Assembly: GCA_030141605.1 (NCBI GenBank)
Contig: JAQGDQ010000209.1
Coordinates: 322,779-386,778, forward strand
Length of the DNA: 64,000 nucleotides
Direction: 5' to 3'
Source: Tubiluchus corallicola
Taxonomy: Eukaryota > Animalia > Priapulida
Shown in pieces: positions 39,101-42,100 of the stretch (within the stretch, counting starts at the first letter, position 1; each line of letters starts with the position of its first letter). The translations under genes were made by a program, and so were the position numbers. The notes beneath the pieces are model-generated. The model saw only the letters and a list, made by a program, of their open reading frames with translations. It had not been told where the DNA came from and made no database searches.

Positions 39101-42100
39101 AGTGTATAGTGCATTATAATTAATGAGCACTTTTAAGTTAACAGAATTAACTATGGAAGTGAACATCATGAATTAGTGATGTTGGTCATAAACAGGAATG
39201 ATATTACTTAGTAAAAAATAATCGTCTACATTGTACACTGCTTTTTGTAGTTAGCTAACGTAAATACAGTTTGATCTTATTGTGTTTATAGTTTGTTTTT
39301 GTTGGCTTTTGTGTTTTTGTACTGTCATTTTATCTGTACTGTACTGTACTGTGAAAGTAGAGACCATTATTACATTATTTCAAACCAAGCTGCTCAACTT
39401 CCAATAACCACAACTAATGTTTCAAACTGACAATTACTAATGTGATTTTTAGTAGAAAATTGGTTGCTCATGTGACTGCTCGAAATTTATAGAATTATTA
39501 CTGATTTAGTTAATTTACAAAACCCGGCAGATAGTTGGACTTTTTTGCTATATCATTTATTTATTTATTAGTCCCAAAATGCATACAATATAAAAAACAG
39601 GACATACAATTTAAATTTTGAAATATAGCAACACTACAGACAAACACGCACGCACGCGCACACACACACACACACACACATATTGTAATTATTAAACAAA
39701 GCATATAATTATAATTGTAAACATGACGAGTACAATTGCAATCATTCCTGTTGGTTATTTTAGTCATTTAAATGAAAAGTTTAATGATTAGTATTTAAAA
39801 TAGAGTCACTCGTCTTGCCTCATTTTCAATTAAAACAAGTGCATTAGTGTGATCTGCAAATGTTGCGGTCACTGCTAAAATAACATCTGTAGTTTCCATT
39901 AAAATTAATGGCATGAGATAATTTCATCTTTTGATTAATTACTTATCAGTACATTAATGTTTGAATTTCATGATAGGCACAGCTGTTGGAGCAATCGCTG
40001 CGCAGAGTATTGGTGAGCCAGGAACCCAGATGACGCTGAAGACCTTCCACTTTGCTGGTGTTGCATCTATGAATATCCTTTATTACAAATTATTATTGAT
40101 TTTGTGTATATATAGTTAGTTATATAGTTTATTAGATCCACATATTGCATGCATGTTGAATAGCTACGTATAACTATATCAAATTAAGTTGTTGTATAAA
40201 GCATTTTGAGTGTGCGGAGAAAGCAAAAAAAATATGAAAAAACATTGAATGTATACAAAACAGATAAGTAAAGATAGATAGAGAGAGAGAGACACACAGA
40301 ATTAAAATTAGTTTTGTAACGGAAGATATTACACTAAATTGCACAGTAAAGTAAGTAACCAAATAAAAGTGAGTTTGCATATACTACAACAAATAATTAG
40401 AGAGTATACTAATAAGCAAGTTCAATTAGTAATTTTCAAAAACATGTTTGAAATTTCTTTTGAAGGTAAAAGTTGAGCTTGGGCATTTAATATCATCAGT
40501 TGTGGTGTTCCTTAGTCTCAGCTCAGTAGCAGTTATGAAATGCTTTGCAATGTCAGTTGAAATTGTGAATGTTCACACTGTAGTTGTTCATAGCACAGCT
40601 TGCAAGACTTTATATTCAGTGGACTAAGCCAAAATGTGCAATTTTAGCAGTTCACAAAAAATTTTCTGGTGTTATGTGACTAGTTGTCTTGATTATCACA
40701 CTCCACCAGACCATCAGTTCTGATTTAGTGCCAAGTTCGAGAAAAAAGTTTTCAGCGGCCTAGAAAATCTTGAAAAAGATACTCGTGAAGAAATTGAAAG
40801 GCGCTTTTGTAATTTCTTTCTAATACTATTCGCATACAACAAAGAAATTAATGTGCAGCAAACTCTGTGATTCAAGCTATCTCAAACAAAATTTGGATGC
40901 AGGTGCCACCTCTGTATGAAGATATTTTGTGTATGGATAACCATTTTAAACATTTACTATGTAACACTTTATGATGCATATTATTGCACTGAGAATGCAC
41001 ACAGGAGCAAGATGAGGCAGATTATTTAGCATGTTTAACAAAAATCTGTATGAGACAAAGTTGGAAAAACAGCATTTATTGACTGCACACAAGAGCAAAA
41101 AAACTGTATCGTGCAAGCTGTTGCACACAATTGTGCACGTAAATTATGAAAGCGTGTAGTTATACAAGTCTTGCAAATAGTGGCAGCAGTTAATTTCGTG
41201 ACTGAAATTACCTTTTGCTTACGATAATTTTTAGCAGCTAATGTCACACCAAAAATATTTCACAAATAATTTGTGAAAAATGCTGCTACAATACATTAAC
41301 ATTTAAATTACATCTAAGCCCTAAGATGCACTAACAAAATTGTAATATCTTAATGTCATAGAATCATGTTATGCGCTCATAAAATAAAACAATCTTTTAA
41401 ATTGGCTTCGTTGGTTTATAAATTAAAACTTGGCCCTTTCATCGAAATCACGCAACATTTTTGTTGTAATTATTGTATTTTTCTTTAACTTGCTTTGCAC
41501 ATATCACTTTGGGTGTGCCTAGAATTAAAGAGATAATCAATGCATCAAAGACAATTAGTACTCCTATTATTACCGCTCATTTGGATGTAGACAGCGACGC
41601 GGAGGTGGCCAGAATTGTTAAGGGTCGCATTGAAAAGACCTTACTGGGAGAGGTAGCTAGTTTTGTTTTGAACATTCCTCTTTCAGTCTTGTTTGATTAG
41701 ACATTAGACATTTATGATTTTTATGTGTGACACACGTAATTTTTTTGGATGACAACATTTGAATGGCCATGTCACTTTTGCATTTTTCGCTGGGTGATAG
41801 TCACCCTAGTTGGGTATTGCATCAGCATCATAAAAGATTAGATTAGATTAGATTATTTACTCAATTCAAAAATACAATCGTACATATACCTGAATAAGAT
41901 CATTACAATTAAAGATAATTAGCTAATGTTTGAGGAAGTGAGAAAGCCACCAGGCCTGAATGCACTTACGGTGGCCCACAATAATTAGCCACTTCTGTTA
42001 AATTTACAAAAAGTATTATAATCAAATGTGAGTAGTTTAAAAGAAAGAGCGTTGTTAGCATTAACAATCTTTGACGGTAAACTATTCCACACATCAATCA

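What the first reader, a model, noticed from the sequence alone, without database searches (positions are those of the whole stretch)
40073..41500. AT-AC minor-spliceosome intron splitting the Pol III trigger loop: possible Pol III / U6atac feedback loop
Seen: the other 31 coding introns of POLR3A are GT-AG. This one starts ATATCCTTT, has TTCTTTAAC 11 nt before a terminal AC, and no GT-AG alternative restores the conserved [21 protein letters not shown]. Retention hits TAG at 40117-40119, truncating the protein inside the trigger loop. Established: these are the U12 consensus signals, this segment is the catalytic trigger loop, U6atac snRNA is transcribed by Pol III, and U12 introns are often rate-limiting. 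Inference: the catalytic subunit of Pol III would depend on its own product for splicing, giving an autoregulatory circuit. I do not recall this intron in vertebrate POLR3A, but that is unverified. Automated gene models probably mis-splice here.
Basis: partly seen in the sequence, partly recalled or inferred. Interest (0 to 1): 0.85.

Follow-up and report, generated by a model that had tools for sequence, protein, structure and literature searches.

The report
Ancient minor intron in Pol III
The gene for the catalytic subunit of RNA polymerase III in this priapulid-like worm has one rare 'minor-type' (AT-AC) intron at a spot where plants, corals and other animals also have one, so it is likely an ancient leftover that humans appear to lack, and the proposed self-regulating loop is untested and would not be special to this gene.

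Summary
Observation confirmed. Intron 26 of 32 in POLR3A/RPC1 (40073-41500) has an ATATCCTT donor, a TTCTTTAAC branch-like motif and an AC end. It splits the Asn codon eight residues after the trigger-loop histidine; the other 31 introns are GT-AG. It is not species-specific. Of 40 metagenome loci chosen for a minor-type donor here, 34 hold the next exon, and all 34 resume in the same codon (32 GT-AG, 2 AT-AC; plant- and animal-type genes). Priapulus and Acropora protein models read through it. Human POLR3A is absent from a published U12 list, but POLR3C, POLR3H, POLR2E, POLR2K and BRF1 are on it, and POLR3H responds to U6atac knockdown. So Pol III's dependence on U6atac already exists in humans. 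Any loop would be positive, not homeostatic. Retaining any of the 32 introns gives a stop, so the trigger-loop position adds nothing. No junction reads or snRNA genes could be checked. The scan's earlier notes held no POLR3A case. Verdict: a real, likely ancient U12 intron; feedback unsupported.

The parts
12083..48012 (+). POLR3A/RPC1 gene, 33 coding exons, about 1377 aa
   Evidence: best solved match human RPC1
39977..40072 (+). Exon 26: first trigger helix and catalytic His (codon 40048-40050); ends with the first base of the Asn codon
40073..41500 (+). Intron 26, phase 1, AT-AC, U12-type, 1428 nt
40073..40081 (+). U12-type 5' splice site ATATCCTTT (6 of 6 matches at +3..+8; the other 31 introns have at most 4)
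40117..40119 (+). In-frame TAG reached 15 codons into the retained intron
41481..41489 (+). U12-type branch-site motif TTCTTTAAC, one mismatch to consensus, branch A predicted 12 nt from the 3' end
41499..41500 (+). AC 3' splice site
41501..41652 (+). Exon 27: completes the Asn codon, second trigger helix ITLGVPR; begins ATATC like the intron, so the junction can slide 5 nt in alignments

Best explanation
This is a U12-type (minor) intron in the RNA polymerase III largest-subunit gene, likely inherited from the common ancestor of plants and animals and likely removed routinely by the minor spliceosome without a dedicated regulatory circuit. Shown: the signals, the phase-1 position in the trigger-loop Asn codon, and the same position with minor-type signals in plant- and animal-type RPC1 genes, as GT-AG in most and AT-AC in some animals. 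Inferred from established minor-spliceosome biology: U11 pairs with ATATCCTT; U12 pairs with TTCTTTAAC, where the C-to-T change would give a G-U wobble; U6atac catalyses excision. Unspliced RNA would carry a stop with six exon junctions downstream and would likely be held in the nucleus or degraded rather than translated. The site probably survived and is easy to recognise because the flanking codons are nearly invariant. RPC1 synthesis here formally needs U6atac, a Pol III product, but that holds for other Pol III subunits in humans too.
For: Signals and unique restoration of the motif. Metagenome scan: 34 of 40 loci contain the next exon and all 34 resume in the Asn codon. The pattern fixed only the donor, yet the 3' ends match it: 32 GT with AG, 2 AT with AC. 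Of 19 introns distinct by their ends, 13 have a branch motif with at most 1 mismatch, against 1 of 31 other introns of the window gene; in 17 of 19 the best site lies 9-13 nt from the end. By best hit to a 15-protein panel, 12 of 19 are plant-type and 7 animal-type; one L018 exon is 100% identical to an Arabidopsis-labelled protein, L007 is Populus-like, L009 and L015 coral-like. Read-through signatures N-I-L/H (42) and S-I-L/F (22) among the best 120 of 7576 hits. Priapulus caudatus, the closest named protein (81.9% over 585 aa), has 330 minor introns (PMC10639083 passage). Animal-plant conservation of U12 positions is known (PMC2426677). No blastn hit with E below 0.07 between the window intron and 19 orthologous introns.
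Against: No RNA evidence of excision at these ends, and no genome to look for minor snRNAs. The DNA scan and the query were biased towards intron-bearing genes, so they give no frequency; many loci are related plants and not independent. The reference panel had no fungi or protists, so 'ancestral' rests on plants plus animals, and parallel gain is not excluded. Absence in human rests on one published list, not on DNA. Long persistence is also what a regulatory role would predict (hypothesis in PMC2426677), and U6atac is unstable and can be limiting in HeLa cells (PMC3728624). Lack of blastn similarity between very distant introns is weak evidence against a short element.
Confidence: 0.77

Rival explanations
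1. The intron is a working feedback element. U6atac, a short-lived Pol III product, limits excision of this intron, so RPC1 synthesis follows Pol III output. The sign would be positive: lower Pol III activity lowers U6atac, raises retention and lowers RPC1 further, acting as a growth or dormancy switch rather than a homeostat.
For: U6atac half-life under 2 h, dependence on Pol II and Pol III, and limiting for about 200 genes in HeLa cells (PMC3728624 abstract and passages). The intron kept minor-type signals in plant and animal genes. Several Pol III genes carry U12 introns in human, and POLR3H responds to U6atac knockdown.
Against: No data on retention in any species. Minor introns vary widely in U6atac dependence. 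A 3000-genome survey attributes functional biases of minor-intron genes mainly to gene age and favours neutral processes (PMC10639083 abstract and passages). Known minor-spliceosome autoregulation is negative and uses unproductive splicing (PMC5473595 listing; TTL preprint passages).
Confidence: 0.13
2. The plant and animal introns are real U12 introns but arose independently at the same favoured site in an invariant coding stretch, so the match in position is convergence.
For: Plant-type loci are all GT-AG while the window and two animal-type loci are AT-AC. Other introns occur a few codons downstream in other genomes, so the region gains introns. The downstream exon in the window starts ATATC, close to a U12 donor.
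Against: GT-AG forms also occur in 5 of 7 animal-type introns, so the subtype varies within animals. Same codon, phase and rare class in both kingdoms. [quoted passage not shown]
Confidence: 0.07
3. The intron is not spliced by the minor spliceosome at these ends: it is a U2-type AT-AC intron, or a nearby GT-AG pair is used.
For: No junction read was seen; 13 in-frame GT/GC-AG pairs exist nearby; U2-dependent AT-AC introns are reported (PMC1557818 listing).
Against: All 13 alternatives destroy the invariant ITLGVPR helix. The full U12 donor and a branch motif at the canonical distance are present, and orthologous introns keep the same signals.
Confidence: 0.03

Closest known systems
U12-type introns conserved between animals and plants (Basu et al. 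2008, PMC2426677; Larue and Roy 2023, PMC10639083)
   Same: RTATCCTT donor, TCCTTAAC-like branch site 10-15 nt from the end, same position and phase across kingdoms, GT-AG and AT-AC subtypes at one position, ancient core gene.
   Different: Apparently absent from human POLR3A, so human-anchored comparisons would miss it. I found no paper naming it, but could not open the databases likely to list the Arabidopsis copy.
Human U12 introns in Pol III machinery genes: POLR3C, POLR3H, POLR2E, POLR2K, BRF1 (PMC6800510 Tables S1 and S3; PMC11347168 Table S6)
   Same: A Pol III component needs the minor spliceosome, and so U6atac, a Pol III transcript; retention rises when minor splicing is impaired.
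   Different: Here the host is the catalytic largest subunit, the intron is AT-AC, and no perturbation data exist.
U6atac-controlled 'molecular switch' minor introns (Younis et al. 2013, PMC3728624)
   Same: A single minor intron in a multi-intron gene whose retention would block productive mRNA.
   Different: Shown in human cell lines for a subset of introns; baseline retention and U6atac sensitivity are untested for this intron.
Minor-spliceosome negative feedback: U11-48K and U11/U12-65K (PMC5473595); CENATAC/TTL AT-AC intron (bioRxiv 10.1101/2025.02.25.639993)
   Same: A gene needed for minor splicing is itself processed by minor-spliceosome components.
   Different: In those systems more activity makes less product. 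Here splicing makes the product, so the loop would be positive, and no conserved element beyond the splice signals was seen.

Membership tests
U12-type (minor) intron | Extended 5' splice site RTATCCTT | tested here: met
   ATATCCTTT at 40073; 6 of 6 at +3..+8 against at most 4 in the other 31 introns; consensus from PMC2426677
U12-type (minor) intron | TCCTTAAC-like branch site 10-15 nt upstream of the 3' splice site | tested here: met
   TTCTTTAAC at 41481-41489, one mismatch, 11 nt before the end; 1 of 31 other introns scores as well
U12-type (minor) intron | Matched termini AT-AC or GT-AG that restore the reading frame and conserved protein | tested here: met
   AT-AC restores GVASMNITLGVPR; 13 of 13 GT/GC-AG alternatives do not
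U12-type (minor) intron | Orthologous introns keep minor-type signals at the same position | tested here: met
   34 of 40 loci with the next exon, all in the same codon; 13 of 19 distinct introns with a branch motif at most 1 mismatch; the scan required the donor
U12-type (minor) intron | Excised at these ends in RNA | tested here: inconclusive
   No laid contig joins across this intron; see Tried and rejected
U12-type (minor) intron | Genome encodes U11, U12, U4atac, U6atac, and splicing depends on them | not testable with these tools
   No whole genome held; no Rfam match in the window. The closest named relative is minor-intron rich
Minor-spliceosome autoregulatory (negative feedback) circuit | More minor-spliceosome activity lowers the product, through unproductive splicing | tested here: not met
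   Splicing yields the full protein and retention yields a stop: opposite sign
Minor-spliceosome autoregulatory (negative feedback) circuit | Conserved cis element beyond the splice signals | tested here: inconclusive
   blastn against 19 orthologous introns: best E 0.076; only short two-copy repeats in the intron; no close relatives available
U6atac-limited switch intron | Baseline retention that changes with U6atac level and alters protein output | not testable with these tools
   Needs RNA-seq and perturbation

The most novel reading that the evidence does not exclude
Minor introns are kept across the Pol III machinery (RPC1 in plants and many invertebrates; POLR3C, POLR3H, POLR2E, POLR2K and BRF1 in humans) because the unstable Pol III product U6atac gates the synthesis of Pol III itself. 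That would be an ancient positive-feedback growth switch, wired through different subunits in different lineages and through the catalytic trigger loop here. Four of 17 human Pol III subunit genes have U12 introns: P = 0.002 at an assumed 3.5% background, but 0.08 at an assumed 10% for ancient genes, so enrichment is not established.
Probability: 0.1. Interest if true: 0.7.

Novelty: new member of a known kind. Interest (0 to 1): 0.27.

Why it matters
As it stands, it adds a plant-animal shared minor intron that human-centred lists miss, shows a GT-AG/AT-AC switch at one position, and explains broken RPC1 models in at least two invertebrates (Priapulus, Acropora). The Arabidopsis-type copy is only 99 nt (L018), which makes it a convenient test case for whether a minor intron limits a core enzyme. 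If the feedback idea held, it would tie minor splicing to tRNA and 5S synthesis and so to growth control, but that can already be tested in human cells through POLR3H.

Tried and rejected
RNA evidence: no RNA holder was listed for the junction, which is no evidence either way. Of two runs laid on 38800-48500, X1 gave DNA-like cover. X2 (RNA by guess) had one contig joining 42553^43294 (intron 28, GT-AG; 21 differences in about 250 nt, so a related sequence) and no cover of the AT-AC junction. Minor snRNAs: no genome held; 0 Rfam matches in the window. Literature on this intron: 'POLR3A + U12-type intron' (2 papers), 'minor intron + POLR3A' (4 hold both, 3 listed), 'NRPC1 + U12' (0), 'At5g60040' (6), 'minor introns + RNA polymerase III + U6atac + feedback' (2). 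From the listings none concerns it; I did not read those papers. Supplement searches were negative in PMC2831892, PMC4892727 (1 file not searchable) and PMC11347168; none of these was shown to hold a full Arabidopsis U12 list. PMC5358371 is not held. A search for the human exon structure found nothing useful. Other RTATCCTT matches in the window (923, 8214, 12353, 16960; minus strand 8217) were set aside as background. The trigger-loop position as a special regulatory feature was rejected.

Full report
Observation. Every stated feature is in the sequence: donor ATATCCTTT at 40073, TTCTTTAAC at 41481-41489, terminal AC at 41499-41500, and TAG at 40117-40119 on retention. The downstream exon matches human RPC1 residues 1063-1112 best (E 6.6e-20). 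A homology-guided model gives 33 exons and 1377 aa without internal stops, with 31 GT-AG introns and this one AT-AC. Two junctions (24, 30) were set to in-frame GT-AG pairs by hand after the automatic search preferred non-canonical ends. All 13 in-frame GT/GC-AG alternatives near the junction lose or replace ITLGVPR. The donor motif alone occurs at background rate in the window (6 seen, 7.3 expected), but its coincidence with a homology-fixed junction, a branch motif and AC has a probability near 2e-8 (factors). Alignment to yeast Rpb1 places the split Asn at 1093, between H1085 and G1097, which are trigger-loop residues (PMC3325174, passages).

Organism. The first 585 residues are 81.9% identical to the Priapulus caudatus model and 69.8-75.2% to eight other animal proteins, so the host is probably priapulid-like; unreviewed notes on this genome say the same. 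P. caudatus is reported to have 330 minor introns with substantial conservation to other animals (PMC10639083, passage). A minor intron is therefore expected in this animal.

Conservation, protein level. Among 120 homologs, 106 contain the motif; 104 continue normally, and the Priapulus and Acropora models diverge at this codon as N-I-L and S-I-L, the translations of A|ATATCCTT and A|GTATCCTT. A search with the read-through peptide returned 7576 hits. Of the best 120, 42 read N-I-L/H, 22 S-I-L/F, 1 other, and 55 run through the site; 27 of those 55 break off a few codons later, as genomic ORFs with no intron here but another nearby would. The query favours read-through hits, so these counts are not frequencies. 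Of 120 plant proteins, 102 have the motif and 101 are normal, so mis-modelling is not general.

Conservation, DNA level. A metagenome scan for the exon end followed by RTATCC gave 40 loci. Thirty-four contain the next exon and all resume inside the Asn codon; in 6 it was not found. The pattern asked nothing of the 3' end, yet all 32 GT introns end in AG and both AT introns end in AC. Collapsed by their ends there are 19 distinct introns: 13 have a branch motif with at most one mismatch (1 of 31 other window introns does), 18 with at most two (10 of 31 do), and 17 have the best site 9-13 nt from the end. By best hit to a panel of 15 plant and animal proteins, 12 are plant-type and 7 animal-type. 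One L018 exon is identical to an Arabidopsis-labelled RPC1, L007 is Populus-like (533/569), and L009 and L015 are coral-like. The simplest reading is one ancient U12 intron, with subtype switching in animals and several losses. No fungal or protist copy was identified, so parallel gain is not excluded.

Humans. A published list of 846 human U12 introns in 699 genes (PMC6800510; passages and supplements, one file not searchable) has no POLR3A but includes POLR3C, POLR3H, POLR2E, POLR2K, POLR1E, BRF1 and RNPC3. In PMC11347168 Table S6 the POLR3H intron is marked responsive to U12, U4atac and U6atac morpholinos. That POLR2E and POLR2K are shared by all three polymerases and that BRF1 is a Pol III factor is recalled, not from a call.

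Mechanism. Shown: signals, position, stop on retention. Inferred: recognition by U11/U12, catalysis by U6atac, and nuclear retention or decay of unspliced RNA. U6atac is a Pol III transcript with a half-life under 2 h, depends on Pol II and Pol III, and limits some but not all minor introns in HeLa cells (PMC3728624, abstract and passages). It already holds in humans through other subunits. U6, needed for the other 31 introns, is also a Pol III product. Retention of any of the 32 introns gives a stop, so the trigger-loop position is incidental. And because splicing is productive, the loop would be positive, unlike the negative feedback described for U11-48K/65K (PMC5473595, search listing) and proposed for TTL/CENATAC (bioRxiv 10.1101/2025.02.25.639993, passages). 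No shared element beyond the splice signals was seen, though the compared introns are distant. In favour of some role: long persistence, and the hypothesis that slow U12 introns down-regulate expression (PMC2426677, abstract and opening text). Against: a 3000-genome survey favouring neutral processes and gene age (PMC10639083, abstract and passages).

Novelty. My paper searches and supplement searches found no mention of an RPC1 minor intron or of a Pol III-U6atac loop. The databases most likely to list it (introns.info, IAOD, MIDB), bioRxiv supplements and the maize study PMC5358371 were out of reach, and the Arabidopsis genome is among those classified in these surveys, so prior cataloguing is likely. 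The scan's notes held no POLR3A case but did hold U12 introns in fungal RPB5 and TFIIIC tau95 (unchecked).

Verdict. A real U12-type AT-AC intron, likely ancient, a new member of a known kind. Excision in RNA and the minor snRNAs remain unchecked in this organism. The feedback loop is untested, about 0.1 likely as a functional circuit, and not special to this gene. Interest 0.27.

Noticed in passing
window 17972-19048 (+): Intronless rhodopsin-family GPCR ORF (Pfam 7tm_1, E 2.4e-31) nested on the same strand inside POLR3A intron 3 (16528-21869); first in-frame ATG at 17972.
   Followed up: partly
window 37957-38989: The exon 24/25 junction leaves the protein about 10 residues shorter than homologs; two in-frame AG acceptors (38971, 38989) are possible, or a small exon was missed.
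   Followed up: partly
window 40073-40077 and 41501-41505: The intron and the next exon both begin ATATC, so the junction slides over 5 nt, and the exon start is one base short of a U12 donor core.
   Followed up: partly
window about 4190-7690 (-): Multi-exon papain-family (cathepsin L-like) protease gene upstream of POLR3A on the opposite strand.
   Followed up: no
window about 60850-62350 (-): Broken ORFs that by eye resemble LTR-retrotransposon pol (RNase H and integrase-like stretches); the one piece scanned had no Pfam match.
   Followed up: partly
window about 2380-2600: Short tandem repeat of about 21-nt units seen as repeated peptides in the six-frame listing.
   Followed up: no
L002, L005, L014, L025, L030: Plant-type RPC1 genes with divergent trigger-loop flanks (for example VPRIIEIING, VPRVKEIMNG) that keep the U12 intron; possibly duplicated, fast-evolving NRPC1 copies.
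   Followed up: no
L008 and L037: The two other AT-AC copies have weaker donors (ATATCCTCC, ATATCCTAC) and branch motifs further from the end (29 and 18 nt) than the GT-AG copies.
   Followed up: no
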